A stretch of DNA of 32,000 nt from Rhodobacter capsulatus SB 1003 (GCF_000021865.1 NC_014035.1:60001-92000); one strand, 5' to 3'; shown: positions 6,122-22,926, counted from the first letter of the stretch. Translations and numbers: made by a program. The notes: generated by a model from the letters alone, not told the origin.

Positions 6122-6123
6122 TC

Positions 6124-6513: not shown

Positions 6514-6514
6514 C

Positions 6515-6754: not shown

Positions 6755-6765
6755 GATTTACCCTT

Positions 6766-7821
6766 TCAGAACAGAAAGTTGAACAGATAGCCCACGGCCA
6801 GGATGCCGCTGCCCACCACCCCCACGAAGACGCCGATCAACCGCAGGCTGAGGACCTGTTTCAGGATGATCATCTCGGGCAGCGAAAGCGCGATCACCGA
6901 CATCATGAAGGCGAGAGCGGTGCCCAAGGCCGCGCCCTTGCCCAAAAGCGCCTCGATGATCGGGATCACGCCGGCGGCATTGGTATACATCGGAATGCCG
7001 ATTGCCACGGCGGCGGGCACCGACCACCAGGCCTCCGCCCCCATGATCCGCGCCATCAGATCCTCGGGCACATAGCCGTGGATCAGCGCCCCCATGCCGA
7101 TCCCGGCAAGGATCCAGATCCAGACCCGACCGACGATCTCGCGCAGCGCCGCAAGGCCCAGGCGGTAGCGGTCCACCATGGTCAGCCGGTCGCCCTCGAA
7201 GGCCGCGGGGGCGCTGGCGCCGGAATGAATGTCGCGCACCCAATCCTGCAACCAGCTCTCCAGATGCAGCCGCCCGATCACCCAGCCCGAGACGATGGCG
7301 ACGGCGAGCCCGAAGAAGAAATAGACCGCCGCCACCTGCCAGCCGACGAGACCGAAGAGCAGCACCAGCGCCACCTCATTCACCATCGGCGCCGAGATCA
7401 GGAAGGAAAAAGTGACCCCCAAAGGCACCCCCGCCGAGACAAGCCCGATGAAGAGCGGCACCGCCGAGCAGGAGCAAAACGGTGTCACCACGCCCAGGGC
7501 CGCGGCCATGACATTGCCCACCCCCTCGCGCCGCCCGGCCAGCAGGGCGCGGGTGCGCTCGGGCGAGAACCAGCTGCGCAGCAAGCCCATCAAGAACACG
7601 ATGAGCGAAAGCAGCATCAGCACCTTGGGCAGATCGTAAAGGAAAAACGCGATGGCCTCGCCGGTGCGGCTGTGACGATCAATGGGCAAGAGCGCGGTCA
7701 GCGCCTCGGCGGCGGGGGAGAGTTGGCGGTAGACCAGCGCCCAGAAGATCAACGCCAGCGCAAGGCCAAGGTGCCAGGCCCAGGCAGGGGCGGGGCGTGT
7801 CGAAAGCGTTTGATCGCTCAT
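6766..7821 (-). CDS. ArsP-like / DUF318 family permease
   Basis: Polytopic membrane protein with the VVTPFCSCSAVPLF motif characteristic of this permease family. Start set at the ATG at 7821 (MSDQTLSTRPAPAWAW), which overlaps the stop of the upstream arsR (ATGA). Confidence 0.8.
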   Translation of the reverse strand: MSDQTLSTRPAPAWAWHLGLALALIFWALVYRQLSPAAEALTALLPIDRHSRTGEAIAFFLYDLPKVLMLLSLIVFLMGLLRSWFSPERTRALLAGRREGVGNVMAAALGVVTPFCSCSAVPLFIGLVSAGVPLGVTFSFLISAPMVNEVALVLLFGLVGWQVAAVYFFFGLAVAIVSGWVIGRLHLESWLQDWVRDIHSGASAPAAFEGDRLTMVDRYRLGLAALREIVGRVWIWILAGIGMGALIHGYVPEDLMARIMGAEAWWSVPAAVAIGIPMYTNAAGVIPIIEALLGKGAALGTALAFMMSVIALSLPEMIILKQVLSLRLIGVFVGVVGSGILAVGYLFNFLF

Positions 7822-8108
7822 GCGGCGCTCCTTTCCGCGGTGGCGGCGGCGGCGAGAACGGCGGTCAGCACGGCGCGGATCTCGGGCGGCATCTCCGGGT
7901 TCAGCCGATAGCGCACCCATTGCGCGTCGCGCCGGTCCACCACCAGCCCCGCCTGTTTCAGCGCCTGCATGTGCCGTGACATCCGGCTTTGCGTGGCATC
8001 AAGCGCCGCCATCAACTCGCAGACGCAATGCTCGCGCCCGTCCGCAAGACGGATCATCGCCGCCAACCGGGTCGGCTCGGCCAAGGCCGTCAGAACGGAA
8101 AGAATCAT
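7818..8108 (-). CDS. arsR: ArsR-family As(III)-responsive repressor (canonical CVC type)
   Basis: MILSVLTALAEPTRLAAMIRLADGREHCVCELMAALDATQSRMSRHMQALKQAGLV contains the (E)xCVC(E/D)L As(III)-binding motif. Start at the ATG at 8108, preceded by a GAGGTG Shine-Dalgarno. Confidence 0.85.
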   Translation of the reverse strand: MILSVLTALAEPTRLAAMIRLADGREHCVCELMAALDATQSRMSRHMQALKQAGLVVDRRDAQWVRYRLNPEMPPEIRAVLTAVLAAAATAERSAA

Positions 8109-8145
8109 CGGACACCTCTTGCGCTTTCGCGCATATTCGCCCTGG

Positions 8146-8180
8146 CGCATGCCATGCGTCAAGGCGCATATGGATGCGCC
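8146..8180. promoter_or_regulatory. Two palindromes with a GCGCAT core in the arsJ-arsR intergenic region (terminator and/or operator candidates)
   Basis: CGCATG-C-CATGCG lies at 8146-8158. GGCGCAT-ATGG-ATGCGCC lies at 8163-8180, abutting the arsJ stop. A third, TGCGC-TTTC-GCGCA, lies at 8120-8133. Confidence 0.3.
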
Positions 8181-9425
8181 TCAGTCCTGCGCCAGCCTGC
8201 GGGCGGCCCACCAGCTGGTTGCGGCCATGGCGCCTGCGGTGGCAAGGCACAGCGCCAGCCCGCCGAACTGGCAGCTGAGCCCCGACAAAAGCGTGCCGAT
8301 CAGCCGCCCGGCCGCATTGGCCATGTAGTAAAAACCGACATCGCGGGTGATCCGCCGCGCATCGCCAAAGGCGAGGATCAGATAGGAATGGACCGAGGAA
8401 TTGACCGCGAAGACGAAGCCGAAGGCGAGCAGTCCGATGAGCAGCGTTGCGGTCAGCCAGGGCGCGGGGGCGGGGGCGATCAGCACCGCGGCTGCCAGCC
8501 CGAAGGGGATCGGCACCAGATAGCCCGCCCAGGTGATCGCCTTCGTCACGATCGCGGCCTCGGGCTGGGATTTCGCGCCCAAGATGCGGGGGGCAAAGGC
8601 CTGCACCGCGCCGTAGGCGATGATCCAGAGCGCCATGAAACCGCCGGTCAGAAAGAACGCCTCGCGGCGGCCCTCGGCCGTGCCGTCGGAGAGAACCGCC
8701 TGGAAATAGACCGGAAGCCCGACGACGAACCAGACATCGCGGGCGCCAAAAAGGAACATCCGCGCCAGCGAAAGCCGGTTCACCTGCGGGTCCTGCGACC
8801 GCCAGCCGCCCCAGGCCTCGTCGGATTTCATCTTCCCGGGCAGGCCCTTGGGCAGGAAGGCCACGACCGCGATCAGGATCGCCGCCAGAAGCCCCGCCAT
8901 GCCCCAGATCGCCGGCTTGAAGCCGACAAGCGCCAGAAGCGCCGCGCCAAGGAAGAAGCCGAGCCCCTTCACCGCGTTCTTTGACCCGGTCAGCGCCGCC
9001 ACCCAGCGAAACAGCCCGCCCTCGCCGCTGGGGGCGAGCAGTTTCACCGCCGATTTCGACGACATCTTGGCCAGATCCTTGGCAACGCCCGAGACACCCT
9101 GCACCGCCATCACGAAAGCGACCGAGGCGGGGATCGACCAGCCCGGGTCCAGCTGCGTCAGCGCGACCAGCGCCGCGACCTGCAGGCCAAGCCCGCCGTA
9201 AAGCGTGGCGGCCAGGCCGAACCGCGCCGCCAGCCAGCCCGCGCCAAGATTGGTGGCAATGCCCGCGACTTCGTAAAGCAGAAACAGCCAGGCCAGCGCG
9301 ACCGGGCTGAAGCCCAGCCCGTTGAACTGCAACAGCACCAGCATCCGCAGCGCGCCATCGGTGAGCATGAAGGCCCAATAGGCGGCGGTGACGGCAGCGT
9401 AGGCGCGGATCGGATTGGCGCTCAC
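8181..9425 (-). CDS. arsJ: ArsJ, MFS exporter of 1-arseno-3-phosphoglycerate
   Basis: The segments [51 protein letters not shown] and [14 protein letters not shown] match my recollection of ArsJ. It is directly downstream of a GAPDH gene. I propose the GTG start at 9425, overlapping the GAPDH TGA (GTGA). The track ORF extends to 9479. Confidence 0.85.
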
Positions 9426-10429
9426 AACGACCCCGCCACCATTCGGGCGATATCGGCCATCCGGCAGACATAGCCCCATTCGTTGTCATACCAGGCGTAA
9501 AGCTTGAGCTGCGTGCCATTGACCACCATCGTCGAGGGGCCGTCGATCACCGCCGAGCGCGGGTCGTTGGTGAAATCCGACGACACCAGCGGCCGCGTCT
9601 CGAAACCGAGGATGCCGTTCAGCCCTCCCTCGGCGGCGGTCTGCAGAAGGCTGTTCACCTCTGCGACCGTGGTCGGGCGGTCAAGTTCGAAGACGCAATC
9701 GGTCAGCGAGGCATTCAAAAGCGGCACCCGGACGGCATGGCCATTGAGCCGCCCTTTCAGCTCGGGATAGATCAGCGTGATCGCCGTGGCCGAGCCGGTG
9801 GTGGTGGGAATGAGGTTCATCAGCGCCGACCGCGCCCGGCGCAGGTCTTTCGCGGGGCGGTCGACGATCGTTTGCGTGTTCGTCACGTCATGCAGTGTGG
9901 TGATGGATCCGTGTTTGATTCCAAGCGCTTCGTGGATCACCTTCACGATGGGGGCCAGGCAGTTGGTGGTGCAGGACGCCGCCGTGATCAGCCGCTGGCT
10001 GCCATCGTAAAGCACGTGGTTCACGCCATAGACGAGGTTCAGCGCGCCCGTATCCTTGACCGGGGCCGAAACGACGACCTTGCGCACGCCTGCATCGAAA
10101 TAGGGCTGGACCTTGGCCGCGGTCTTGAACTGCCCGGTGCAATCGAGCACCAGATCGACCCCGATCTCGGCCAGGGGCAGGGCTTCAAGGGTCTTTTCCC
10201 GCGTCAGCCGGATGCGCTGCCCCGCGATCTGAAGCCCGGTTTCGGTGGCGGCAACCGGGGTCGGCCAGCGGCCATGCACCGTGTCGAACTCGAGCAGCAG
10301 CGCATGGGTTTCGGCGTCGCCCATGGCGTCGTTCAAAAGCACGATCTCGGGCCCGCGCCCCAGATCGATGAGCCGCCGCAAGAGCAGTTTTCCCATCCGG
10401 CCCAAGCCGTTGATCGCAAGTCTCGCCAT
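9422..10429 (-). CDS. gap: Glyceraldehyde-3-phosphate dehydrogenase, ArsJ-associated paralogue
   Basis: [12 protein letters not shown]-binding N-terminus, catalytic [10 protein letters not shown]-terminal WYDNEWGY. Embedded between arsR::arsC and arsJ. Confidence 0.9.
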
Positions 10430-10432
10430 GGC

Positions 10433-11278
10433 TCAGGCCTTTTCGGGCAGGGCGCCGATCGCATCGACGCGGGTTTGCAGCGCCAGCCGGTCGAGCGTGG
10501 CAAAGGGCAGGTCGACAAAGGCGGCAATGCGGCGGCGCAGCGCCCCGTAGGTCTGGGCGAAAACCAGCGCGCGTTCGGCCTCGGTGCCGGTGGCCTTGAC
10601 CGGATCGGGCAGGCCCCAATGGCCGGTGATCGGCTGACCGGGCCAGGGCGGGCAGTCCTCGGCCGCCGCCGTATCGCAGACGGTGAAGACGAACTCCATC
10701 TGCGGCGCGGCGGGGCCCTGGAACTCCGACAGATGCTTGGCGCGCAGGCCCCCGGTGTCATGGCCGTTGCGGCTCAGCACCTCGAGCGCGAAAGGGTTGA
10801 TCGCGGTCCCGGGCCGCGTTCCGGCGGAATGGGCGGTGAACTTGCCCGCGCCCAGATCGCGCAGGAGCGCCTCGGCAAAGATCGAGCGGGCGGAATTGCC
10901 CGAGCAGATGAAAAGCACGTTGAAGGGCGTGTCGGGCATGGGATTTGCCTTTTCATGAAGAGCTTTGGGCATCAGGTCGGGCCGGGCCCGGCCCAGATCG
11001 AGGGCGAGATAGCCGATCAGGGATTCGGTTTTGTGAAGATCGACGGCGTAGAAAAGCGACCGCCCCTGCCGGGTGACTGTGACCAGCCCGCAAGCAGTCA
11101 GATCCGCCAGATGATGCGAGAGGGTGTTTGGCTTCAGCCCCAGCGCCGCGGCGATTTCGGTGGGCCGCACGCCCTGCGGCGCAAAGCGCATGAGCATCCG
11201 GAACACCGACAGGCGACCGGGATGGCCAAGACAGGCAAAGGCCGCGGCGGCCTCGGGGGTGGGGCAAGTGTTTTCCAT
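10433..11278 (-). CDS. arsC: Fusion protein: ArsR-type winged HTH + LMW-PTP-type (thioredoxin-coupled) arsenate reductase ArsC
   Basis: The N-terminal ~110 aa contain LGHPGRLSVFRMLM...NTLSHHLADLTACGLV (ArsR HTH). The C-terminal part has FNVLFICSGNSARS (P-loop Cys) and TVCDTAAAEDCP (the second and third redox Cys). Confidence 0.85.
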   Translation of the reverse strand: MENTCPTPEAAAAFACLGHPGRLSVFRMLMRFAPQGVRPTEIAAALGLKPNTLSHHLADLTACGLVTVTRQGRSLFYAVDLHKTESLIGYLALDLGRARPDLMPKALHEKANPMPDTPFNVLFICSGNSARSIFAEALLRDLGAGKFTAHSAGTRPGTAINPFALEVLSRNGHDTGGLRAKHLSEFQGPAAPQMEFVFTVCDTAAAEDCPPWPGQPITGHWGLPDPVKATGTEAERALVFAQTYGALRRRIAAFVDLPFATLDRLALQTRVDAIGALPEKA

Positions 11279-11344: not shown

Positions 11345-12307
11345 TCACGTCTCGCAGATGACGCGGCCGATGTCGCGCAGATCGTACCCCCCGATGGCGC
11401 CGAATTCGGCCTTGAAGGCCTGCGAGCGCAGCACCGACAGGAGCGCCTGCACCTCGGGGCGGGGCAGATGTTCGGTCTTCACCACAAGGTCGTAGCGTTC
11501 GCGCTGCATCGGCAGAAAGGCGACCCCATCCACCTGCCGCGCGATCTTTTCCGTGCCCACCGCGATATCGGCCTCGCCCCGTCCCACGGCGCTTGCCAGC
11601 GCCAGATGCGAGGCGCTTTCCTGCCCGTAGCCGGCAATCCGGCTACCGGAAATCCCGAGCCGTCGCAGGTGTTCATCCAGCAGCACCCGCGACCCCGCCC
11701 CCTTTTCGCGGTTGATCATGCGGATGTCGTCGCGGCCGAAATCCGCCCAGCCGGTGATCCGCTTCGGGTTCCCTTCGGCCACATAAAGCCCCTGCATCCG
11801 CCAGGTGACATTGACGATCGTGCAGGCAATGCCCGGCAGCAGCGCCCGCACATGCGCAATGTTGTAGCTGTCGCTGGCGCCGTCCCACAGATGCGCCGTC
11901 GCGACGCCGACCCGGTCATGATACAGCGACACAAGGCTGTCGTAGCTGCCGATATAGGCCCGAAGCGCCATCACCCCGCGCTGCCGCAGCAGGTTCGAAA
12001 GCACGTCAAGGATCAGATCCTGCCCGCAGATCACGAAGCCCGCACTGCCCGGCCGCTGCGCGCCAAGGTCGAAATGACGGCCCTCCTACAGCACCACCGG
12101 CCCGGGGCGGGCGGCGGGGCAAGCCGTTCCCTCGACATAGGCGCGCAGCTGCGCCGCGCTGAAGCGGATCTTGCGGCCGACCTTGTAATGGCCGATCGCC
12201 CCCGCCTTGATCAGCGCATAGACCCCGCTTTTCGAGATCTTGAGCCGCAGCGCGACCTCTTCGGCGGTCATGGCATCTGTCGGGGCATCGCTTGCAGCAT
12301 CGGACAT
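11345..12307 (-). pseudogene. HTH_17 (excisionase/MerR-like) + PBP_like oxyanion-binding-domain regulator (TunR/ModE-like class), interrupted by an in-frame TAG
   Basis: Track ORFs 12086..12307 (MTAEEVALRLKISKSGVYALIKAGAIGHYKVGRKIRF) and 11345..12034 (ICGQDLILDVLSNLL...HLALASAVGRGEADIAVG) are in the same frame (12307-12034=273). They are separated only by a TAG at 12086-12088 and 17 sense codons. Confidence 0.65.
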
Positions 12308-12503
12308 GGCACGGGCCTTTCTGCGATTTCGTGATGGTTCGCCCTATTCCGCGCATTCACGATCTTCCATCGGCCCGAGTCAATTCGTTTTCGCTTTACT
12401 TCGCGCCGATATCTGGCTTGATCCGGCGAGCAGACAGCAAAACGGGTGCAAAAGCTGCATTTTCGCCCCGTTTCGCCTCGGTTCACGCATCGAAAGGTCC
12501 GCC

Positions 12504-13166
12504 ATGCCGCAGCCCTTCGCACCCCTGCCGCCTTTCTCTCGGGCGGGGTCATTGGCACCCTGGGCGGGTTGATCGGCCTTGGCGGTGCCGATGGCCGATC
12601 TGGCGGCGCAATGGCCGGTGATCGTGAATCTGCTGGCGGGCAGTCTGGCCGGGGCGTGGTTTGGCGCAGGCTGGGCGACGCGTTTGCGCTCTGACATCCT
12701 GTTCAAGGTGATCGCGGCGCTGATGGCGGGAATTGCCGTGGTGCTTCTGACCGGCCACGGCGTGGCGTCGGGCGCGGCCCTCGTCACCGGCGGCGCGCAG
12801 ATCGGTCTGGGCGTGGTCGCGGGCTTTGCGATCGGCATCGTCGCGGCGCTGATGGGGGTGGCGGGGGGCGAATTGCTGATCCCGACGCTGGTGATCCTGT
12901 TCGGGGCCGACATCAAGCTGGCGGGGTCGCTCTCGCTTGCGGTCAGCCTGCCGACGATGCTGGTGGGTTTTGCCCGCTACAGCCGCGATCAGGCCTTTGC
13001 CACGCTGGGCCGCAACCGGATTTTCGTCGCGGTGATGGCGGCAGGCTCGATCGCAGGCAGCTTTCTGGGCGGGCATCTGCTGGGCCTTGTGCCCGAGGCG
13101 GTCCTGCTGCCCGGCCTCGCGCTCATTCTGGTGATTTCCGCCTTCAAGGTCTGGCGGCACAAGTAG
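12504..13166 (+). pseudogene. TSUP (TauE/SafE, DUF81) family anion exporter, apparently disrupted near the 5' end
   Basis: The 195-aa ORF 12579..13166 has the second-repeat motif MGVAGGELLIPTL. The expected first-repeat motif FLSGGVIGTLGGLIGLGGA is encoded at 12533-12589 in a different frame. It is followed directly by ADLAAQWPVIVNLL in the main frame. This implies a non-multiple-of-3 internal deletion. Confidence 0.5.
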
Positions 13167-13331
13167 GCGGGTGGTGACTTTTGCCGCAATGACCTGACCC
13201 GCCCGCCTTCGCGATTTCCTGAGGATCGATCACGTGGCGGCGTCGACGGGGAGCGGCCCTTCGTGTCGCGACCTGGCGTCACGCTGCGGCCCGCTCGGGC
13301 GACCGCTTCGGAGGTTGCGGCCGGGCGGATC

Positions 13332-13392
13332 GACCGACGGCAAAGGGCCGGGTCCGTCGATCAACTCGTCGCCTTCGCAACGGGCGGGAAGC
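13332..13392 (+). repeat. Left copy of a 61-bp imperfect direct repeat flanking the OLD/UvrD islet
   Basis: Manual alignment with 17293-17353 gives 54/61 identical, including an 18-nt identical run cgtcgatcaactcgtcgc. Confidence 0.7.
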
Positions 13393-13603
13393 TGTCCGAT
13401 GCAAGTGCGGCATTCCAGTTGCGTCAAGTCGGCAAGACGGACGCTCACAAAACCGCAGCTAGCTTTCTTAGTAAATGATGAGCATATACTCAGGGGTGAA
13501 TAGCGCAAAAGAAAGCGCATTGAAGTTGTTTGTGCAGACCAAGAGATTTAAACGTAAGTGGTGAGCATTTTCTCGGCGCCCATATCGTGAGGAATTCGTA
13601 CAA

Positions 13604-15388
13604 ATGCGGATTTCGCGAGTAAGAATAGCCAACTTTGCAAATTTCTCCGATCTCGACGTCGAGACGGGCGAGAGCATCGTCATCGTCGGTGAAAACAAGG
13701 TCGGCAAGAGCAACTTCATCCGCGCCCTGCAACTGATCCTCGACCCCGGGCTCTCGGAACGAGACCGCCAACTCGGACTCGAACATTTCTGGGATGGCTT
13801 AGGAGAGGACAAGCTTGGCGAGGCGATCGAAATCTCAATCGATCTGACGGATTTCACCAACGATCCGCGTCTGATGGCGCATCTCAACGACTGCGTGGTG
13901 GACCCGGGCCCGCCAATGGTCGCGCGCCTTACGTACCGCTTCCAGCCAAAGGCAAATCTCGGCCGTGATCCCGAAAGTCTGGCTGACTACGAGTACGTCA
14001 TTTTCGGCGGCGACGATCCCGATATGGCGATCGGGTCATCATTGCGCCGGATGCTCCCGCTCGACGTTCAGGTGGCGCTACGTGACGCAGAGAAAGACCT
14101 GTCGATCTGGCGAAATTCGCCGCTAAGGCCGTTGATCGAACAGTTGGCAACTTCGCTGGACGAAGACGCTCGCGACGAAATCCAGGAACAAGTAAACGAG
14201 GCTCAAGCCGAGCTTGCCGGTCATGCCGAGGTGGTTGCTACCGCGCAGCGGATCAGCGACCGCCTGATCGCTATTGCGGGTGAGCAGCATGCCGTTCCGC
14301 TCACGCTAGGCCTAGCTCCGACGCGGGTCGATGCGCTACTGCGTAGCCTGCGCCTGCTGATCGACAATGGTGCGCGCAGTATTGGCGATGCCAGCCTCGG
14401 CACCGCCAACCTGATCTTTCTGGCGTTGAAGAGCCTCGAGTTGGATCGTTTGGTGACTGACGGCGAGCGTGACCACACCTTCTTCGTGGTCGAAGAGCCC
14501 GAGGCGCATCTTCATCCGCATGTCCAGCGGCTGGTCTATCGGTATTTCCTCGGCGGCGCTGCAGATGACCAAGAAGATGCTCCGCCTCTTACGACCATCC
14601 TCACGACGCACTCGCCGCATATCGCCAGCGTCACACCGATCCGCTCGATCGTCCTGCTCCGCTACGACGCCGGCGAGGATGCGACGACCGCCGTCTCGAC
14701 AGCGACGGCTCCGCTGACGGAGCGCGATGAGGCCGACCTCCAGCGTTACATCGATGTCAGCCGCGGCGAGATCTTCTTTGCGCGAGGCGTCATCCTCGTT
14801 GAGGGCGATGCCGAGCGGTTTCTCATTCCCGCATTCGCTGAGGCGCTGGACATCCCGCTCGACATGCTGGGCATCACGGTCTGCTCGGTGAGCGGCACCA
14901 ATTTCACGCCCTATGTGAAGCTGCTGGGTCCGCAGGGCCTGAACATTCCGCACGTCATCCTGACAGATCGCGATCCGAACGGCACGAGGCCGCCGCTGGT
15001 ACGCCGCCGCCTCATCGAGGTGCTGAATCTGGTCGAGAACGGGGTGGACTACACGCCGCTCGACGCCGATGCCGTGATCGCCCGCGCGGAGCCACTCGGC
15101 TATTTCGTGAATGGCAACACACTAGAGCCGGAACTGTTCTGTGGCGGCCTCGCGGACGCGATGCAGGAGATCATAGAAGAGGAACTGCCAATCAATCAGG
15201 CGACCCGCGACCTGCTGCAAGGCTGGGTCGACGACACCGACACGCTCGATGAGGAGAGGCTGATCAAACTCATCGAACGGATCGGCAAGGGACGCTTCGC
15301 GCAGGCGCTGGCGCCGTACGTCGAGGAGGATACGTGCCCGGACTATATCCGCAAGGCGCTGGAGTACATTCGCGATGCCCTTGCGTAG
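13604..15388 (+). CDS. OLD-family ATP-dependent endonuclease (ABC-type ATPase + TOPRIM), GajA-like / class 2 OLD
   Basis: Walker A is VGENKVGKSN, Walker B is FFVVEEPEAHLHP, followed by TTHSPHI. The TOPRIM glutamate is in ILVEGDAERFLIP and the acidic cluster in HVILTDRDPNG. 594 aa. Confidence 0.85.
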   Translation: MRISRVRIANFANFSDLDVETGESIVIVGENKVGKSNFIRALQLILDPGLSERDRQLGLEHFWDGLGEDKLGEAIEISIDLTDFTNDPRLMAHLNDCVVDPGPPMVARLTYRFQPKANLGRDPESLADYEYVIFGGDDPDMAIGSSLRRMLPLDVQVALRDAEKDLSIWRNSPLRPLIEQLATSLDEDARDEIQEQVNEAQAELAGHAEVVATAQRISDRLIAIAGEQHAVPLTLGLAPTRVDALLRSLRLLIDNGARSIGDASLGTANLIFLALKSLELDRLVTDGERDHTFFVVEEPEAHLHPHVQRLVYRYFLGGAADDQEDAPPLTTILTTHSPHIASVTPIRSIVLLRYDAGEDATTAVSTATAPLTERDEADLQRYIDVSRGEIFFARGVILVEGDAERFLIPAFAEALDIPLDMLGITVCSVSGTNFTPYVKLLGPQGLNIPHVILTDRDPNGTRPPLVRRRLIEVLNLVENGVDYTPLDADAVIARAEPLGYFVNGNTLEPELFCGGLADAMQEIIEEELPINQATRDLLQGWVDDTDTLDEERLIKLIERIGKGRFAQALAPYVEEDTCPDYIRKALEYIRDALA

Positions 15389-17192
15389 TGTCAGCGCCGC
15401 CTATCTCGCGCAAGCAGCGGACTTGGCCAGTAACCCGGGCCAGCAAGCCGCCTATGACTCGACCGGCCATTGTGTCGTGCTCGCCGGCCCCGGCAGCGGC
15501 AAGACCAAGACGCTGGTGCTCAAGCTTGCCCGGATCATGGCTGAAGACGTACGCGCGCCACGCGGCGCGGCATGCATCACCTACAGCCAGGAGTGCGCGC
15601 GCGAGCTGACGCGCCGACTGGAGCGGCTGGGCCTGAGAGAGGCGCCGAACCTCTTCATCGGCACGGTCCATGGTTTTTGTCTGAGGCATCTGTTGATGCC
15701 CTATGGCCGTCTTGCCAATCTGCCGGTGCCGTTCCCGCTTGCGGTCGCCACGCAACGACAGAGCGACCAGGCGATGAATCGGGTCGGGGACAGGCTCTTC
15801 GGCGTAGGTCATCCGAACAAGCCGATGGATCTGGGGCGTCATCGGCGATCGATATTGGACAGGACGTCGGAAGCCTGGACAGATGAGGAGGAGCTTGCGG
15901 CATGGGCCGAGGGCTACGAAGCCGAGCTGCGGCGAACAGGTCTCGTCGATTTCGATGACCTCGTGATTTTCGGCCAGCGTCTGGTGTCGGAACACGACTG
16001 GGTGCTTCCGCTGCTCCAAGCGAAATTCCCAGTCCTAGCGGTCGATGAATATCAGGATCTCGGCGTTGCGCTGCACCGCATAGTCAAGCGCGTCGCCTTC
16101 GACGGGGGTGTCCGCCTCTTTGCGGTCGGAGATCCGGATCAGTCGATCTACGGCTTCACGGGTGCGGACGGAGCTTTGCTGGAGGAGCTAGCGGAGCGCG
16201 ACGATGTCGAGCGCGTTCAGCTTCAACTCAATTATCGCTCGGCCACGCGGATTGTCAGTGCCTCCGAAATGGCGCTCGGCGAGGATCGCGGCTACCGATC
16301 GAACGACCCGGATCGCCAGGCGGTGATCGCCTTCCTTGAATGCGACGATGGCCTGGTAGGCCAGGCCGCGCACGCGGTCGCCGAGATCATCCCAGCGGCG
16401 CTTGCCGCCAAACCGGGACGTGCGCTCGGCGACATCGCCATCCTCTACCGGGACTATCGTGCCGGCGACGTGGTGGCGGAAGCGGTCGCGTCCGCCGGTC
16501 TCGACTTTGTGCGGGTCGACACGGCCGCGCCTTATCGCAAGGTCGCACTCACGAGCTGGATCGAGGACTGCGCCGCCTGGTGCTCGGGGGGCTGGCGCAA
16601 AGCACAGCCGCAATTGCGTGGCTTGTTGGACCGCTGGATCGGTTTCCATCGCGCACGGATCTCGGACGCGCAAGCCAGCGCGGAATTGCAAAGCCTCACC
16701 CGGCTTCTCTGGTCGCTCCGGGTTGAAGAGGGGCTGGCCCGAAACTTCGTAGCGGCGCTGCGAGCAGGAATGCTCGACGCGCTGATGGTGGACGAGCCGA
16801 GCCTTGCCGATCAGCGCGAACAGGTCGAGCGGATGTCAGCGGCAGTGGCCGTGGGTGGGCCGCTTGCGGACCTTGACCTCGCAAGTCTTGCTGGGCGTGA
16901 TGGCTCACCACTTCACCTCAATTTGTTGACGCTGCACTCTGCAAAGGGGTGCGAGTACGATGTGGTCATCATGGTGGGGCTCGATCTTGGCAGCCTGCCA
17001 TGGCGTAACGAAGCACCTGCGGCCCAGCGTGAGAGTCGACGTCTGTTCTATGTGGGGCTAACGCGGGCCCGCGATGAAATCCACATGCTATATTCTGGTT
17101 TCGTCGATACCCGCTTCGGGAGGAAGTATTGGGGACGCTCTCCGTTCCTGAACGAGCTTGAGGCGCGAATGCGGGAAGCCGAAGGCGACTAG
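15375..17192 (+). CDS. UvrD/PcrA/Rep-like SF1 helicase, GajB-like partner of the OLD nuclease
   Basis: Helicase motifs: LAGPGSGKTKTLV (motif I), VDEYQDL (motif II), LNYRS, TLHSAKGCEYDVVIM, FYVGLTRARDE (motif VI). The ATG at 15375 lies 14 nt inside the upstream ORF. Confidence 0.85.
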   Translation: MPLRSVSAAYLAQAADLASNPGQQAAYDSTGHCVVLAGPGSGKTKTLVLKLARIMAEDVRAPRGAACITYSQECARELTRRLERLGLREAPNLFIGTVHGFCLRHLLMPYGRLANLPVPFPLAVATQRQSDQAMNRVGDRLFGVGHPNKPMDLGRHRRSILDRTSEAWTDEEELAAWAEGYEAELRRTGLVDFDDLVIFGQRLVSEHDWVLPLLQAKFPVLAVDEYQDLGVALHRIVKRVAFDGGVRLFAVGDPDQSIYGFTGADGALLEELAERDDVERVQLQLNYRSATRIVSASEMALGEDRGYRSNDPDRQAVIAFLECDDGLVGQAAHAVAEIIPAALAAKPGRALGDIAILYRDYRAGDVVAEAVASAGLDFVRVDTAAPYRKVALTSWIEDCAAWCSGGWRKAQPQLRGLLDRWIGFHRARISDAQASAELQSLTRLLWSLRVEEGLARNFVAALRAGMLDALMVDEPSLADQREQVERMSAAVAVGGPLADLDLASLAGRDGSPLHLNLLTLHSAKGCEYDVVIMVGLDLGSLPWRNEAPAAQRESRRLFYVGLTRARDEIHMLYSGFVDTRFGRKYWGRSPFLNELEARMREAEGD

Positions 17193-17289
17193 GTGAAAAG
17201 TGGCGCAATTCGCAACAATGGCGCATAATCGGCCGGTGAAAGCAACGAGCGACTGCTTCGGGAAAGCCGCGCTGCGGCGTGGACACGCT

Positions 17290-17517
17290 TTAGACCGTCG
17301 GCTTTGGGCCGGGTACGTCGATCAACTCGTCGCTTTCGCAACGGGCGGGGAGCGGCCTGTGAGTTTGCGGCATCGCACCCGCGGCAATTCGTGATAGCTG
17401 CCGGTCGCCGAGAGCTTCGGGAATATTGCATGCAACGCGCAGGTTGCTGACGCGGAACTCAATCGGTCGCCCATTGGGCGACCGCTTCATCTCGCTCATC
17501 AGCGGACAGTCGTTCAA
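17290..17517 (-). CDS. Hypothetical small ORF whose last 20 codons are the right repeat copy
   Basis: 75 codons with GC3 about 72% by my count. No family recognised. The stop codon (17290-17292) abuts the repeat edge. A perfect 8-bp hairpin GGTCGCCC-ATT-GGGCGACC lies inside it (17465-17483). Confidence 0.3.
   Translation of the reverse strand: MNDCPLMSEMKRSPNGRPIEFRVSNLRVACNIPEALGDRQLSRIAAGAMPQTHRPLPARCESDELIDVPGPKPTV
17293..17353 (+). repeat. Right copy of the 61-bp imperfect direct repeat
   Basis: See the left copy. On the minus strand both copies encode LPARCE(G/S)DELID(G/V)PGP. Confidence 0.7.
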
Positions 17518-20046: not shown

Positions 20047-20940
20047 ATGCGGCGCGATGAAATGGGCGATCTGATCGCCTTTCTGGCGGTGGCAGAGGAG
20101 CGCAGCTTTACCCGGGCGGCGGCGCGGCTGGGCACGTCGCAAAGCGCGGTCAGCGCGGTGGTGCGCCGACTTGAGGAGCGGCTCGACGTGCGGTTGTTGA
20201 CCCGTACCACCCGGTCGGTTTCGGTGACCGAGGCGGGGCAGCGGCTGGTGGATGCGCTGCGCCCGGCCTTTGACGGGATCGAGGCGGAGCTGGCGGCGCT
20301 TGATGATATCCGCGCCCGGCCGCAAGGCATGATCCGGCTGACGGCAAGCCGCCATGCCGCCGAGCGGATCGTGATGCCGGTGGCGAACCGGCTGATGGCG
20401 GATTACCCCGAGGTGCGGGTGGAAATCCTGCTGGATCAACGCTTTGTCGATATCGCGAAAGAGGGCTTCGACGCCGGCATCAGGCTTGGCGAAAGCGTTG
20501 ATCGCGACATGATCGGGGTGCGCATCTCGGGGGATCTGCAGATGGTCGTGGCTGGATCGCCCGCCTATTTCGCCCGCCATCCTGCGCCGCAAACCCCGCA
20601 AGACCTGACGGCGCACAACTGCATCAACCTGCGCCTGCCGACCTTGGGCGGGCTTTACGCCTGGGAATTCGAAAAGGACGGCCGCCCGCTGACAGTCCGG
20701 GTCGAGGGGCAGTTCACCACCAACGACCCCGAGCTTGCGGTGGCTGCGGCGCTCGAGGACCGGGGGCTGGTTTGCCTGATGACCGATTACCTTGCCCCGC
20801 ATCTCGCCTCGGGGCGGCTCGTTCGGGTGCTGGCCGACTGGTGCCCGCCGTTTTCGGGCTATCACCTTTACTACCCCAGCCGCCGCCAGATCACCCCGGC
20901 GTTCCGGCTTTTGATCGACGCTTTGCGCTGGCGGGGGTAG
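20047..20940 (+). CDS. LysR-family transcriptional regulator
   Basis: LIAFLAVAEERSFTRAAARLGTSQSAVSAVVRRLEERLDVRLLTRTTR HTH followed by a typical substrate-binding domain. Divergent from the cupin-ADH-SDR operon. An alternative start is the ATG at 20062. Confidence 0.9.
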   Translation: MRRDEMGDLIAFLAVAEERSFTRAAARLGTSQSAVSAVVRRLEERLDVRLLTRTTRSVSVTEAGQRLVDALRPAFDGIEAELAALDDIRARPQGMIRLTASRHAAERIVMPVANRLMADYPEVRVEILLDQRFVDIAKEGFDAGIRLGESVDRDMIGVRISGDLQMVVAGSPAYFARHPAPQTPQDLTAHNCINLRLPTLGGLYAWEFEKDGRPLTVRVEGQFTTNDPELAVAAALEDRGLVCLMTDYLAPHLASGRLVRVLADWCPPFSGYHLYYPSRRQITPAFRLLIDALRWRG

Positions 20941-21007
20941 CCCCTCCGCCACGGGCCCGGGCGTCAGCGGTAGGACAGGGCAAGGATCGCCTCGGGCAAC
21001 CTTGCGC

Positions 21008-21451
21008 CTTGCCCGCGGCGATCAGATCGCGCACCGCGCCCGCGACATCCTCCATCGGCACATCGGGATCGACCCGGTGCTGATAGAAAAGATCGATCAC
21101 CTCGACGCCCAACCGCTTCAGACTGGCCTCGGCCACCTGACGGATGCGCTCGGGGCGGCTGTTCAGCCCCCAGTCGCGCGCCCCGGTGACCTGATCGATG
21201 TTCCAGCCGAATTTCGTGGCAATCGTCACCTTGTCGCGGATCGGGGCCAGGGCCTTGCCCAGCAAGACCTCGTTCGTCCAGGGCCCATAGACTTCGGCGG
21301 TGTCGAAATGCGTCACCCCCAGATCGTAAGCGCCGCGAATGACCGAAATCGCCTCGGCCTCGCCGGGCGCCGCGCCATAGGTGGCGGCGAAACTCATCGT
21401 GCCAAAGCCGATTTCCGAGACCTCAAGCGGGCCAAGTTTGCGGGTTTTCAT
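21008..21451 (-). pseudogene. Aldo/keto reductase, N-terminal fragment (~148 codons)
   Basis: MKTRKLGPLEVSEIGFGTMSF...THFDTAEVYGPWTNEVLLGKAL...IDLFYQHRVDPDVPMEDVAGAVRDLIAAGK. AKR similarity then stops, and the ORF runs on as AQGCPRRSLPCP, antisense to the lysR 3' end. Confidence 0.7.
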
Positions 21452-21475
21452 GGGTTTATCCTTTCAGATGAGGGT

Positions 21476-22059
21476 TCAGGCCTTGTGAACGCCAAGGCTG
21501 ACATTCCCGAGGGCGGGTTGACCTGCGAGGGTCACGATCAGATCGGCGACGCTCTTGCGCGAGACAGCGGCACCGGAATTGCGGAAAGTTTCGCCCTTGA
21601 GCGTGGTGCCATAGGCGATCTCGTCGCGATCGTTCAGCCAGGCGGGGCGAATGACGGCATAGTCTAGACCCGAGGTTTCGATGACGCGCGCCGAGGCACG
21701 ATAGGGATCGAGGATCGCGCCGGGCGCTCTCCGGGCACCTCGTCGTAGATCCCCATCGAGGAGATGAAGATGACGCGGCCGACACCCGCCGCCTGCATCG
21801 CCGCGACGATGGCTTTGGCCTGCGCCTCCATCGCGCCCCAGAGGTTGGCATAGACGAGATCCTGACCTGTCATCGCGCTGGCCAGCGTCGCCGTGTCCAG
21901 AACGTCGCCCGTGAGGATGCGGGTGCGATCGGTCTCGGGGCCAAGCCTTCGGGCGGCATTGCGCGCGTAAAGGGTAAGTGTCGCATCGGTTCGGGCGAGC
22001 AGTTCCTGCGTCGCAACCCGCGCAATCTGTCCCGCCGCGCCAAGGATAAGGATCTTCAT
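21476..22059 (-). pseudogene. NAD(P)H-binding NmrA-like/atypical SDR protein with a frameshift
   Basis: The N-terminal part MKILILGAAGQIARV...FISSMGIYDEVPGE is in one frame (ORF 21664..22059). The C-terminal part ILDPYRASARVIETSGLDYAVIRPAWLNDRDE...SLGVHKA is in another (ORF 21476..22138). The switch maps to the C/G run around 21716-21730 and is consistent with loss of 1 nt. Confidence 0.7.
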
Positions 22060-22071
22060 TGCGGTCCCCCG

Positions 22072-22470
22072 TCAGGCCGCGATGAAAGGATGGACGTCGC
22101 GCCAGATGAAGCGCGCGACGCGTTTGGCAATCAGCCATTCTCCGTTCACCCGCAAATAGCTGTCACTGTAGATGACGCCGTTCGAGTTTCGGGTCTTGGC
22201 CCCCTCGGGCTCGCCGATCAGCTCGACGGTGCAGTCATGCGTGGCGGTGGCAGTATCGCCGTCGATCTCGGCGGTGAACTGGCCATTCACATGATAGACG
22301 GTGTCGAAGGTCGCGAGGAACGGCGTCCAGCTGTCCTCGATCGCCTTGCGGCCGCGCAGAGGGGGCAGCGCCGTCTCGCCAAACCAGGTTTCGACGACCC
22401 CGTCTTCGGTGAAGAGGAAGGTTTGTTCCTGCACCTGTCTGGCGTCAGCAAGGTTGGAGAAAGTGTCCAC
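22072..22470 (-). CDS. SnoaL-like/NTF2-fold protein, possibly 5'-truncated
   Basis: FLFTEDGVVETWFGE...GRKAIEDSW...YLRVNGEWLIAKR pattern. The only plausible start is the GTG at 22470. It leaves an unusually short first helix and abuts the AKR C-terminal fragment. Confidence 0.55.
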   Translation of the reverse strand: MDTFSNLADARQVQEQTFLFTEDGVVETWFGETALPPLRGRKAIEDSWTPFLATFDTVYHVNGQFTAEIDGDTATATHDCTVELIGEPEGAKTRNSNGVIYSDSYLRVNGEWLIAKRVARFIWRDVHPFIAA

Positions 22471-22926
22471 AAGGGCTTCCTGACCGGGGCGATGACCAAG
22501 GATACCGCGCTGGCCGAGTCCGACTTCCGCAAGACCCTGCCGCGTTTCACGCCTGAGGCGATGGAGAAGAACCAGGCGCTGGTCGACCTGCTCAGGCAAA
22601 TTGCGGCAGAGAAGGAAGCGACACCGGCGCAGATCGCGCTGGCCTGGCTCTTGGCGCAAGCGCCCCGGATCGTGCCCATCCCCGGAACCAGCAAGGCCTA
22701 TCGGCTCGAAGAGAACCTGGGTGCCGCCGAGATTGTCCTTGCGTCGGAGGATCTCGCGCGGATCAAGGCCGCAACAGCGAATATTCATATCGAGGGCGAG
22801 CGGCACACCGAGGCTGGCCTGAAGACCGTTGGTCTCTCATATGGCGACCTGAAAATGAGCGTCCACGTTGATCCTCGCTGCGCCCGAACTTTTCGGTTTC
22901 GGGCGCGCTGGCGTCATTCTTCGTAG
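22471..22926 (+). pseudogene. Aldo/keto reductase, C-terminal fragment, opposite strand to the N-terminal fragment
   Basis: KGFLTGAMTKDT...DFRKTLPRFTPEAMEKNQALVDLLRQIAAEKEATPAQIALAWLLAQAPRIVPIPGTSKAYRLEENLGA. No start codon context. About 65 central AKR codons are absent from the window. The reading frame appears extended past the usual C-terminus. Confidence 0.7.

What the first reader, a model, noticed from the sequence alone, without database searches (positions are those of the whole stretch)
13604..17192. Overlapping OLD-family nuclease + UvrD-like helicase pair: a Gabija-like / class 2 OLD candidate anti-phage module in a foreign-looking islet
**Nuclease.** The 594-aa ORF combines an ABC-type ATPase (GENKVGKS, FFVVEEPEAHLHP, TTHSPHI) with a C-terminal TOPRIM nuclease (ILVEGDAERFLIP, VILTDRDPNG).

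**Helicase.** The 605-aa ORF has the full SF1 motif set (GPGSGKTKT, VDEYQDL, LNYRS, TLHSAKGCEYDVVIM, YVGLTRAR).

**Coupling.** The helicase ATG (15375) lies 14 nt inside the nuclease ORF, so the two are probably translationally coupled.

**Context.** The pair is preceded by the most AT-rich stretch of the window (about 13440-13610). It is functionally unrelated to both neighbours: a decayed TSUP gene and a redox operon.

**Interpretation.** An OLD ATPase-nuclease with a UvrD-like helicase is the architecture of Gabija (GajA/GajB) and of class 2 OLD nucleases. The sequence alone cannot say which clade this belongs to. It also cannot say whether it behaves like canonical Gabija. From memory the helicase is longer than the Bacillus GajB type, and the region between its core helicase motifs has no motif I can name.
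Basis: partly seen in the sequence, partly recalled or inferred. Interest (0 to 1): 0.8.

Follow-up and report, generated by a model that had tools for sequence, protein, structure and literature searches.

The report
Gabija defence pair on Rhodobacter plasmid
This is an ordinary, intact two-gene Gabija anti-phage system (class 2 OLD nuclease plus UvrD-like helicase) that standard defence-system profiles recognise at full length, sitting as a horizontally acquired cassette on a Rhodobacter capsulatus plasmid.

Summary
Two overlapping ORFs (13604-15388 and 15375-17192) encode an ABC-ATPase/TOPRIM OLD nuclease and an SF1 UvrD-like helicase, preceded by the window's GC minimum.

- PADLOC GajA and GajB models match both proteins end to end (784 and 781 bits).
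- The nuclease's C-terminal region is about 85% identical to the crystallised Xanthomonas campestris class 2 OLD nuclease (PDB 6NJV).
- It keeps all seven catalytic residues of B. pseudomallei OLD at the same residue numbers.

The window is Rhodobacter capsulatus B10-lineage DNA, matching a 133-kb complete record the size of plasmid pRCB133.

The pair is foreign to this site.
- The same cassette (about 13375-17311) occurs at 93% DNA identity in unrelated contexts.
- Relatives at 85-95% amino-acid identity ride conjugative elements in many genera.
- GC3 is lower than in the neighbours.
- A sister R. capsulatus replicon lacks the pair and diverges from the window exactly at the cassette's right end.

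Both genes are under strong purifying selection (dN/dS 0.04-0.15).

The remaining points of interest are modest. This clade may not behave like Bacillus Gabija, the helicase is more UvrD-like than BcGajB, and a roughly 50-nt flanking repeat marks an unexplained recombination breakpoint.

The parts
13375..13603 (+). Cassette 5' non-coding region. It is AT-rich (43-45% GC) and presumably carries the pair's own promoter or regulatory region, with a Shine-Dalgarno GAGGA at 13589-13593.
   Evidence: This stretch travels with the genes. It is 81-86% identical in L001 and L002, whose surrounding DNA is unrelated. It is the GC minimum of the window. No sigma-70 consensus match was found and no Rfam family matched. 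By analogy only: the native 250-bp upstream region of PA14 Gabija is repressive (PMC12407980).
13604..15388 (+). gajA: class 2 OLD-family ATPase-nuclease, 594 aa. Walker A Lys is K35, the Walker B region is residues 293-305, and the TOPRIM plus helical catalytic region is residues 374-594.
   Evidence: - PADLOC GajA PDLC00070: 784 bits, residues 1-592 against profile positions 1-594 of 596.
- Pfam AAA_15 and OLD-like_TOPRIM.
- PDB 6NJV (Xcc OLD CTR) E 1e-103 and 6NK8 (Bp OLD CTR) E 1e-89.
- E400, E404, D455, D457, T506, E508 and K562 are all present (compared with PMC6755086).
- dN/dS is 0.06-0.12 against relatives.
14723..15385 (+). Catalytic C-terminal region of GajA: the TOPRIM domain plus the class 2-specific helical domain, which together form the two-metal active site.
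   Evidence: It aligns with a single one-residue gap to the crystallised Xcc OLD CTR, and without gaps to the Bp OLD CTR. All residues coordinating metal A and metal B are conserved, as is the catalytic Lys.
15375..17192 (+). gajB: SF1A UvrD/PcrA/Rep-like helicase, 605 aa. Walker A Lys is K43 and motif II is D224-E225-Y226-Q227.
   Evidence: - PADLOC GajB PDLC00117: 781 bits, residues 5-602 against profile positions 2-603 of 604.
- Pfam UvrD-helicase and UvrD_C.
- It stays below every NCBIfam housekeeping equivalog cut-off: PcrA 178 bits against 911, UvrD 153 against 1144.
- PDB by sequence: PcrA 1e-40, BcGajB 1e-14.
- AF2 model (pLDDT 68): TM 0.59-0.65 to UvrD, PcrA and Rep, against 0.36-0.42 to BcGajB.
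- dN/dS is 0.04-0.15.
15375..15388 (+). 14-nt overlap between gajA and gajB, which suggests translational coupling.
   Evidence: The overlap is shown. GGAG lies about 11 nt upstream of the gajB ATG (sequence). Class 2 OLD genes are described as 'often' overlapping their helicase gene (PMC6755086).
17193..17311 (+). Cassette 3' non-coding tail.
   Evidence: It is shared with L001 and L002 at over 90% identity up to about 17311, after which the three sequences diverge. No terminator-like site was found.
13332..13392 (+). Left copy of the flanking direct repeat. The core is GGGCCGGGTCCGTCGATCAACTCGTCGCCTTCGCAACGGGCGGG, and weaker similarity extends over about 13297-13430.
   Evidence: The 61-nt repeat is 89% identical to 17293-17353. 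The 44-nt core occurs exactly twice in the window, and no shuffle gave any match.
17293..17353 (+). Right copy of the flanking direct repeat. It contains the point where the sister R. capsulatus replicon (L110) stops matching the window.
   Evidence: L110, which lacks the pair, is 99.5% identical to window 22472-17305 and has one copy of the repeat core, followed by unrelated DNA.

Best explanation
**What it is.** Window 13604-17192 is an intact two-gene Gabija system. gajA encodes a class 2 OLD ABC-ATPase/TOPRIM nuclease. gajB, which overlaps it and is probably translationally coupled, encodes a UvrD-like SF1A helicase/NTPase.

**Where it sits.** The pair travels as a roughly 3.9-kb cassette (about 13375-17311) with its own AT-rich upstream region. 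It was acquired horizontally, and the window is Rhodobacter capsulatus B10-lineage DNA matching a 133-kb record the size of plasmid pRCB133.

**Most likely mechanism (inferred from characterised homologues, not shown here).**
- GajA forms a tetramer that binds GajB.
- The complex acts on invading linear or nicked DNA from phages, and possibly from plasmids.
- GajA cuts by two-metal TOPRIM catalysis using E400, D455 and D457 (metal A), E404, T506 and E508 (metal B), and K562.
- The GajA ATPase domain and the GajB motor gate or drive the activity.

**How this clade may differ.** The nuclease belongs to the Xcc/Bp OLD clade. I therefore expect a non-sequence-specific nicking and 5'-3' exonuclease that hydrolyses ATP, rather than the ATP-inhibited, site-specific nicking reported for B. 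cereus GajA. I also expect a helicase with a fuller UvrD-like architecture than BcGajB.
For: **Shown here.**
- Both proteins match PADLOC GajA and GajB models at full length, 784 and 781 bits, with the expected Pfam domains.
- Residues 374-594 of the nuclease are about 85% identical to the Xcc class 2 OLD crystal construct.
- All seven catalytic residues defined for Bp OLD are present at identical numbering.
- The genes are co-oriented with a 14-nt overlap.
- Both genes are under purifying selection, dN/dS 0.04-0.15.
- The helicase fails all housekeeping PcrA, UvrD and Rep equivalog cut-offs.

**Evidence for horizontal mobility.**
- GajA relatives at 85-95% amino-acid identity occur across Alpha-, Beta- and Gammaproteobacteria and in other phyla.
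- DNA homology to them is confined to the two ORFs, or to 13375-17311 in L001 and L002.
- The relatives sit in conjugative elements or in an integrase-bounded island next to other helicase and methylase genes.
- GC3 is 0.72-0.74 against 0.75-0.87 in the neighbours.
- A sister R. capsulatus replicon lacks the pair.
- R. capsulatus strains R121 and DE442 lack pRCB133 genes altogether (PMC3924369).

**From the literature.**
- Class 2 OLD is treated as synonymous with GajA.
- Xcc OLD is tetrameric.
- Bp and Xcc OLD are non-specific, ATP-insensitive nucleases.
- BcGajAB forms a 4:4 complex.
- A Gram-negative Gabija, from P. aeruginosa PA14 on the PAPI-1 ICE, protects against diverse phages and needs the GajA ATPase and TOPRIM sites and the GajB ATPase and DExx sites.
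Against: - No functional data exist for this locus, and I found none for any member of this close clade. The 2023 review lists the target phages of Bp OLD as 'unknown'.
- Sequence similarity to the only mechanistically dissected GajA and GajB (B. cereus) is low, about E 1e-11 to 1e-14 over partial regions. Complex stoichiometry and gating are therefore extrapolated.
- The two published in vivo models conflict: nucleotide-depletion abortive infection against non-abortive targeting of RecBCD-free DNA ends. Nothing here decides between them.
- No promoter or terminator consensus was detected, so expression is not shown.
Confidence: 0.88

Rival explanations
1. The system is the same, but it works exactly like B. 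cereus Gabija. GajA would be a sequence-specific nickase held off by cellular NTPs. GajB would sense DNA 3' ends and burn (d)ATP and (d)GTP. Nucleotide depletion would then unleash GajA and the infected cell would die (abortive infection).
For: The domain architecture and gene order are the same, and the PADLOC family assignment is the same. This is the model described in the review.
Against: - The closest characterised nucleases (Xcc and Bp OLD, about 85% and 74% identical in the catalytic region) are reported as non-specific, insensitive to ATP, and able to hydrolyse ATP.
- Similarity to BcGajA and BcGajB is low.
- The one Gram-negative system studied in vivo was found to be non-abortive.
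Confidence: 0.2
2. The pair's main role is competition between mobile elements, or plasmid and ICE maintenance, rather than phage defence. It would destroy incoming rival plasmids or conjugative DNA, or act in an addiction-like way.
For: - It is carried on a plasmid here. In relatives it sits inside conjugative elements between the ParA/RepA and ParB modules.
- PA14 Gabija is reported to act on plasmid DNA and on transduced DNA as well as on phages.
Against: - Mobile elements commonly carry genuine anti-phage systems (established knowledge).
- The cassette also occurs in a chromosomal, integrase-bounded island next to other putative defence genes.
- Nothing in the sequence indicates a toxin-antitoxin-like arrangement.
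Confidence: 0.12
3. The pair is a housekeeping or repair module: a UvrD paralogue with an accessory nuclease, not an immunity system.
For: The helicase's best solved-structure matches are PcrA, UvrD and Rep.
Against: - Scores are far below every NCBIfam equivalog cut-off for PcrA, UvrD and Rep.
- The pair is not core. It is absent from a sister replicon, and whole strains lack the plasmid.
- Its distribution across taxa is patchy at very high identity.
- It sits on mobile elements.
Confidence: 0.03
4. The pair is a decaying, non-functional relic, like its frameshifted neighbours.
For: The neighbouring TauE gene is frameshifted. Several nearby genes are called only as fragments, such as the Aldo_ket_red pieces.
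Against: - Both ORFs are full length relative to the family profiles.
- All catalytic and motor motifs are intact.
- dN/dS is well below 1.
- The sequence is identical in many independent assemblies.
Confidence: 0.03

Closest known systems
Class 2 OLD nucleases of Xanthomonas campestris pv. campestris and Burkholderia pseudomallei (PDB 6NJV and 6NK8; Schiltz et al. 2019, PMC6755086)
   Same: - ABC-ATPase plus TOPRIM plus helical-domain architecture.
- About 85% (Xcc) and about 74% (Bp) identity over residues 374-594, aligned with at most one one-residue gap.
- Identical catalytic residues at identical numbering.
- A downstream overlapping UvrD-like helicase gene.
   Different: - The host and replicon differ: here it is an alphaproteobacterial plasmid.
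- Only the C-terminal regions of the reference proteins are in the PDB, so the N-terminal ATPase half could not be compared directly.
- Neither reference protein has a demonstrated phage target.
Bacillus cereus VD045 Gabija (GajA/GajB; PDB 8SM3, 8J4T, 8JQB)
   Same: The two-gene architecture, gene order, domain content and PADLOC family are the same. The review treats GajA and class 2 OLD as synonyms.
   Different: - Sequence similarity is weak: GajA E about 1e-11 over residues 292-460 only, and GajB E about 1e-14 over residues 216-319 only.
- This helicase is 605 aa against 494 aa. It is about 62 residues longer before motif II and about 50 residues longer after it, judging from the alignment offsets.
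- Its model superposes poorly on BcGajB, TM 0.36-0.42.
- The biochemistry reported for the nearer homologues differs: non-specific and ATP-insensitive, against site-specific and ATP-inhibited.
Pseudomonas aeruginosa PA14 Gabija on the PAPI-1 conjugative island (Hong et al. 2025 preprint, PMC12407980)
   Same: - It is a Gram-negative Gabija carried on a mobile element.
- Both genes and their catalytic motifs are required.
- It has a native upstream region of about 250 bp with regulatory effect. The cassette here carries a conserved 230-nt upstream region.
   Different: - PA14 GajB has a DESQ motif II, whereas this clade has an invariant DEYQ, so the two belong to different subclades.
- I could not obtain the PA14 sequences, so identity was not measured.
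- RecBCD gating has not been tested in an alphaproteobacterium.
UvrD/PcrA/Rep SF1A helicases (PDB 1PJR, 2IS6, 4C2T, 1UAA)
   Same: - All SF1 motifs are present.
- The sequence matches PcrA over residues 22-379 and 497-601.
- The predicted fold gives TM 0.59-0.65.
   Different: - Identity is only 22-26%.
- It stays below all equivalog thresholds.
- The segment occupying the 2B position is shorter: residues 380-496, against about 380-543 in PcrA by the alignment offsets.
- It is genetically coupled to a nuclease and carried on mobile DNA.

Membership tests
Class 2 OLD nuclease (Schiltz et al. 2019) | N-terminal ABC-type ATPase plus C-terminal TOPRIM domain in one polypeptide | tested here: met
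   Pfam AAA_15 and AAA_21 cover residues 1-341, and OLD-like_TOPRIM covers 391-457. The Walker A, Walker B and H-loop motifs were located.
Class 2 OLD nuclease (Schiltz et al. 2019) | [quoted passage not shown] | tested here: met
   A 14-nt overlap on the same strand. The definition is quoted.
Class 2 OLD nuclease (Schiltz et al. 2019) | Helical domain after the TOPRIM domain contributing to a two-metal site (E400, E404, D455, D457, T506, E508, K562 in Bp OLD) | tested here: met
   Residues 374-594 align with at most one one-residue gap to the 6NJV and 6NK8 constructs. All seven residues are present at the same positions.
Class 2 OLD nuclease (Schiltz et al. 2019) | Metal-dependent DNA nicking and exonuclease activity | not testable with these tools
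   This needs purified protein.
Gabija (GajA/GajB; Doron et al. 2018; PADLOC) | GajA profile match | tested here: met
   PDLC00070, E 2e-236, 784 bits, full length.
Gabija (GajA/GajB; Doron et al. 2018; PADLOC) | GajB profile match in the adjacent gene | tested here: met
   PDLC00117, E 2e-235, 781 bits, full length.
Gabija (GajA/GajB; Doron et al. 2018; PADLOC) | Protection against phage that requires both genes | not testable with these tools
   No paper links R. capsulatus with Gabija. Plaque assays are needed.
Gabija (GajA/GajB; Doron et al. 2018; PADLOC) | GajA4:GajB4 supramolecular complex | not tested
   The structure tool predicts single chains only. Xcc OLD is reported to be tetrameric in solution.
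B. cereus-type Gabija mechanism | NTP-inhibited, sequence-specific nicking by GajA, with GajB acting as a DNA-stimulated (d)ATP/(d)GTPase without helicase activity | not testable with these tools
   The literature on the nearest homologues points the other way for GajA. The helicase here looks more like a complete UvrD.
Class 1 OLD (stand-alone, P2 Old / Ts OLD) | Single isolated gene without a helicase partner, and about 50 aa shorter | tested here: not met
   A helicase partner is present. The match to Ts OLD (6P74) is only E 8.5e-16.
Class 3 OLD (retron Eco8-type effector) | Adjacent reverse transcriptase and retron ncRNA, and an equivalog-level profile match | tested here: not met
   NF038234 scores 49.5 bits against a cut-off of 250. 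No RT ORF is adjacent. No Rfam family matched anywhere in the window.
Housekeeping UvrD / PcrA / Rep | Equivalog-level match to the NCBIfam models | tested here: not met
   PcrA scores 178 bits against a cut-off of 911. UvrD scores 153-165 against 965-1144. Rep scores 158 against 951.
Integron gene cassette | attC-type imperfect hairpin at the 3' end with a GTTRRRY core, and an IntI integrase nearby | tested here: not met
   The repeat regions do not fold clearly better than shuffled sequence: z from -0.03 to -1.96, with only the minus strand of the left copy borderline. No GTTRRRY is present at the junctions. No integrase was found among the window ORFs scanned.

The most novel reading that the evidence does not exclude
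This reading has two parts.

**1. A cassette-exchange site.** The roughly 50-nt sequence that brackets the cassette (GGGCCGGGTMCGTCGATCAACTCGTCGCYTTCGCAACGGGCGGGRAGC) may be a dedicated recombination site at which R. capsulatus plasmids swap cargo cassettes without a recombinase encoded nearby.
- It is joined to three different sequences: the TauE side, the cassette, and the unrelated DNA in the sister replicon L110.
- The DNA on either side of it in the window resembles the cassette's own 3' and 5' ends in permuted order, as a circular or tandem cassette junction would.

**2. A different mode of action.** This Xcc/Bp-type clade, with a complete UvrD-like helicase, may act by a mechanism genuinely different from Bacillus Gabija: a processive helicase-nuclease on unprotected DNA ends. 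In R. capsulatus this could affect the fate of linear DNA delivered by the gene transfer agent.
Probability: 0.1. Interest if true: 0.5.

Novelty: already known. Interest (0 to 1): 0.2.

Why it matters
Scientifically it matters little. Gabija is among the most prevalent known defence systems, and this copy is a close relative of the proteins used to define class 2 OLD nucleases.

Its practical value is local.
- It gives a defence-system annotation for a plasmid of the R. capsulatus B10/SB1003 lineage, the model organism for gene transfer agents. No paper I could find mentions it.
- Natural controls may exist. R121 and DE442 are reported to lack pRCB133 genes, and a sister replicon lacks the pair at this site.
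- That makes it a convenient system for two questions. Does the proteobacterial Xcc/Bp OLD clade, whose phage targets are listed as unknown, defend against phages? Does it behave like the Bacillus model or the Pseudomonas model?

Tried and rejected
**1. Integron-like cassette.** Rejected. There is no convincing attC-like hairpin, no GTTRRRY core at the junctions, and no integrase among the window ORFs scanned.

**2. Target-site duplication or att sites common to all copies.** Rejected. L001 and L002 carry the same cassette without flanking direct repeats.

**3. Genome-wide repeat family.**
- The repeat core occurs only twice in the window.
- It was not found in the metagenome or viral collections.

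**4. Clean empty site.** Not obtained.
- All contigs carrying the exact neighbouring ADH also carry the pair.
- A scan with the 3' end of the TauE gene found nothing.
- The best substitute is L110. It shares only the right-hand flank and one repeat copy. This proves absence of the pair at that site, but not a simple insertion.

**5. PLSDB lookup.**
- The plasmid collection held no close match to the region.
- It does not contain NC_014035.1.
- The identification as pRCB133 therefore rests on contig sizes of 132,949 and 132,962 bp and on the Y262 draft.

**6. Third gene.** The 480-nt gap after gajB holds only short ORFs and has no homology in relatives. The extra ORFs that follow gajB in ICE-borne relatives are absent here.

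**7. Phage origin.** No close relative exists in the phage collection. The best hit is 24-29% identical.

**8. Structure of the helicase.** Confidence was only moderate (pLDDT 68), because the alignment I could hand in was shallow, at 79-95% identity. The fold comparison is indicative only.

Full report
**Observation**

Both are on the + strand and overlap by 14 nt. Every quoted motif is present at a sensible position. Pfam finds AAA_15, AAA_21 and OLD-like_TOPRIM in the first protein, and UvrD-helicase, AAA_19 and UvrD_C in the second.

The AT-rich stretch upstream is the compositional minimum of the whole window. The eight lowest-GC 150-nt windows all start at 13441-13511, at 43-45% GC against about 65% overall. 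A GAGGA at 13589-13593 precedes the first ATG. A GGAG lies about 11 nt before the second ATG, inside the first gene, which fits translational coupling.

- **Left:** a TauE/TSUP gene whose N-terminal motif lies in a different reading frame, so it is frameshifted.
- **Right:** an SDR, a zinc alcohol dehydrogenase, a cupin and a LysR regulator.

**What it is**

PADLOC models of Gabija match both proteins from end to end:
- GajA model PDLC00070 scores 784 bits over residues 1-592.
- GajB model PDLC00117 scores 781 bits over residues 5-602.

Against solved structures, residues 374-594 of the nuclease match two class 2 OLD catalytic regions:
- the Xanthomonas campestris construct 6NJV, at E 1e-103 and about 85% identity, aligned with one single-residue gap;
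- the Burkholderia pseudomallei construct 6NK8, at E 1e-89, aligned without gaps.

The paper that defined class 2 OLD nucleases names the two-metal active-site residues of Bp OLD as E400, D455 and D457 (metal A), E404, T506 and E508 (metal B), plus K562 (PMC6755086). All seven are present here at the same residue numbers. [quoted passage not shown] That is the arrangement seen here.

A later review from that field states that class 2 OLD proteins and GajA are the same thing (PMC10568477).

Other OLD classes and housekeeping helicases are excluded:
- The retron Eco8 effector model scores 49.5 bits against a cut-off of 250.
- The PcrA, UvrD and Rep equivalog models score 153-178 bits against cut-offs of 911-1144.
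- No Rfam family matches anywhere in the window.

**Where it is**

The window matches these records:
- R. capsulatus Y262 contig AYQB01000051.1, at 100% identity over 18.3 kb. Y262 is a B10 derivative.
- The complete 132,949-bp record CP198943.1, at 99.99% identity.

The neighbouring SDR protein is also recorded on a 132,962-bp R. capsulatus contig. The 2014 Genome Announcement names plasmid pRCB133 (NC_014035.1) as part of the SB1003 reference. From memory, 132,962 bp is the size of pRCB133.

I therefore infer that the window lies on pRCB133 or an equivalent replicon. I could not open that record, because it is not in the plasmid collection.

**Is it foreign?**

Five lines of evidence say yes.

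1. **Spread across taxa.** GajA relatives at 85-95% amino-acid identity occur in many bacteria:
   - Alphaproteobacteria: Oceanicella, Roseomonas, Xanthobacter, Sphingomonas, Bradyrhizobium, Mesorhizobium, Agrobacterium and several Acetobacteraceae;
   - Gammaproteobacteria: Lysobacteraceae;
   - MAGs labelled Gemmatimonadetes, Acidobacteria and Lentisphaeria.

   No R. capsulatus record appears among the 80 best loci from species-representative genomes.

2. **Homology confined to the pair.** DNA homology between the window and nearly all of these loci starts at the first gene's start codon and stops at the second gene's stop codon. Only L001 (an alphaproteobacterial MAG) and L002 (Oceanicella sp.) extend further. 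They share 13375/13383-17311 at 93% identity, with unrelated DNA beyond. The mobile unit is therefore the two genes plus 230 nt upstream and 120 nt downstream.

3. **Mobile contexts elsewhere.**
   - In many relatives the pair is cargo on an integrative conjugative element. Relaxase, SLT, a TraF-like peptidase, DUF2840, ParA and RepA lie on one side, and ParB and Toprim_3 on the other.
   - In L001 it sits next to large helicase and methyltransferase genes, with an HTH regulator and a phage-type integrase downstream.

4. **Composition.** GC3 is 0.74 and 0.72 for the two genes, against 0.75-0.87 for fourteen... twelve neighbouring genes measured.

5. **Absence from a sister replicon.** Record CP198950.1 (163.8 kb, locus L110) carries the same LysR-cupin-SDR block at 99.5% identity but no nuclease/helicase pair.

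Both genes are under strong purifying selection, with dN/dS 0.04-0.15 against nine relatives. They are maintained, not decaying.

**The flanking repeat**

A 61-nt direct repeat of 89% identity brackets the cassette at 13332-13392 and 17293-17353. Weaker similarity extends over about 130 nt. Reading the alignments gives three points:
- The cassette shared with L001 and L002 begins inside the left copy and ends inside the right copy.
- The window-specific DNA just left of the left copy resembles the cassette's 3' end.
- The window-specific DNA just right of the right copy resembles the cassette's 5' end.

L110 has a single copy of the repeat core, identical to the window's right-hand copy. Its homology with the window stops at 17305, which is the cassette's right boundary. 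Beyond that point L110 has unrelated genes, including cold-shock proteins and DUF982.

The core sequence is therefore joined to three different partners. That marks it as a recombination breakpoint. I could not establish the mechanism:
- The region does not fold convincingly like an attC site. Only one of the four strands tested was borderline, at z -1.96.
- L001 and L002 have no flanking repeats.
- No recombinase gene was found among the window ORFs scanned.
- The core is absent from the metagenome and viral collections.

This remains unexplained, and it is the only unusual feature I found.

**How it probably works**

Nothing here is experimental, so the mechanism is inferred from homologues. 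The shared core of the published models is a GajA tetramer decorated with GajB. The complex cuts foreign DNA at the TOPRIM site, and the two nucleotide-binding modules control that activity.

Two in vivo models exist and they conflict:
- **Bacillus cereus.** GajA is a site-specific nickase inhibited by NTPs. GajB is a DNA-stimulated (d)ATP/(d)GTPase without helicase activity. The outcome is abortive infection.
- **P. aeruginosa PA14.** Gabija is carried on the PAPI-1 conjugative island and is non-abortive. It blocks circularisation of linear DNA that RecBCD has not loaded onto, and it also acts on plasmid and transduced DNA. Its native 250-bp upstream region is repressive (PMC12407980).

The proteins nearest to this one, Xcc and Bp OLD, are reported to be non-specific nicking and 5'-3' exonucleases. 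ATP does not affect their cutting, and they do hydrolyse ATP.

The helicase here also differs from BcGajB:
- By sequence it is closer to PcrA and UvrD (E 1e-40) than to BcGajB (E 1e-14).
- It is about 110 residues longer than BcGajB.
- A moderate-confidence model (pLDDT 68) superposes on UvrD, PcrA and Rep with TM 0.59-0.65, against 0.36-0.42 for BcGajB.

My best guess is that this clade behaves more like a nuclease coupled to a working helicase or translocase that acts on unprotected DNA ends, and less like the nucleotide-gated Bacillus model. I hold that at roughly 55:20, with the remainder undecided.

**Comparison and novelty**

Every defining feature of class 2 OLD/Gabija that can be tested in silico is met. 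The untestable ones are phage protection, complex formation and enzymology.

The subfamily is already represented in PADLOC by full-length models, and in the PDB by two crystal structures of close relatives. I therefore rate the finding as already known.

It differs from the Bacillus prototype in real ways, but those differences are shared by a very large, already recognised proteobacterial clade. No paper in the library connects R. capsulatus with Gabija, so the annotation may be useful to people working on R. capsulatus phages and gene transfer agents.

**Verdict**

- The system is ordinary.
- Interest is 0.2. The residual value lies in the unexplained repeat and breakpoint, and in a convenient natural test bed for the Xcc/Bp-type clade.

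Noticed in passing
L101:11821-12726 (also about 26-29 of loci L001-L080, directly after the helicase gene): In the ICE-borne relatives, a 210-aa ORF starts 3 nt after the helicase stop. It is followed, in the same frame after a stop and a 21-nt gap, by an 84-aa ORF. Together they carry a PD-(D/E)xK-like 'IDGSF...YLVEAKW' motif. They have no Pfam, PADLOC or NCBIfam match and are 83-95% conserved across genera. The window, L001 and L002 lack them. They could be a third component of that variant, or separate cargo. The conserved in-frame stop is odd.
   Followed up: partly
window 13297-13430 and 17250-17390; L110:11147-11197: The repeat core that brackets the cassette is present once in a sister R. 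capsulatus replicon, exactly where the two replicons stop matching. The flanks of the repeat in the window resemble the cassette's own ends in permuted order. The recombination mechanism is unexplained.
   Followed up: partly
window 12446-13166: The TauE/TSUP gene is frameshifted. Its N-terminal motif FLSGGVIGTLGGLIGLGGA is in one frame (about 12500-12570), and the rest is in ORF 12579-13166. Pfam covers only profile positions 60-236 of 237.
   Followed up: yes
window 5045-11278: An arsenic-resistance-like cluster lies to the left of the pair:
- an ACR3/SBF permease (5045-6121, +);
- an ArsP permease (6766-7920, -);
- a GAPDH (9422-10429, -), next to an MFS gene (7999-9519, -) that is called as MFS_1 in identical contigs, resembling an ArsJ/GAPDH pair;
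- an ArsR-HTH fused to a low-molecular-weight phosphatase/ArsC-like domain (10433-11278, -).
   Followed up: no
window 11345-12307 (- strand): An HTH_17 (excisionase-type helix-turn-helix) ORF of 61-73 aa and a PBP_like ORF of 229 aa are called as separate adjacent genes in all identical contigs. These two domains may elsewhere occur fused in one regulator, so this may be a split gene.
   Followed up: no
window 20891-22926; L082, L083, L110: - Several short Aldo_ket_red fragments (144-186 aa) and truncated SnoaL and NmrA-like ORFs suggest gene decay in the block to the right of the pair.
- L110 carries an extra 2.2 kb with an MFS_1 gene, inserted at the point corresponding to window 22471/22472.
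   Followed up: no
P0056: A protein 92% identical to this bacterial helicase is listed in a eukaryotic protein set (EukProt, Tetraselmis striata 'Tetstr1'). This is most likely bacterial contamination of that assembly.
   Followed up: no
window 31001-32000: GC content rises to 77-79% at the right end of the window, over a FecCD-family permease gene (30877-31887, -). This is well above the window mean.
   Followed up: no
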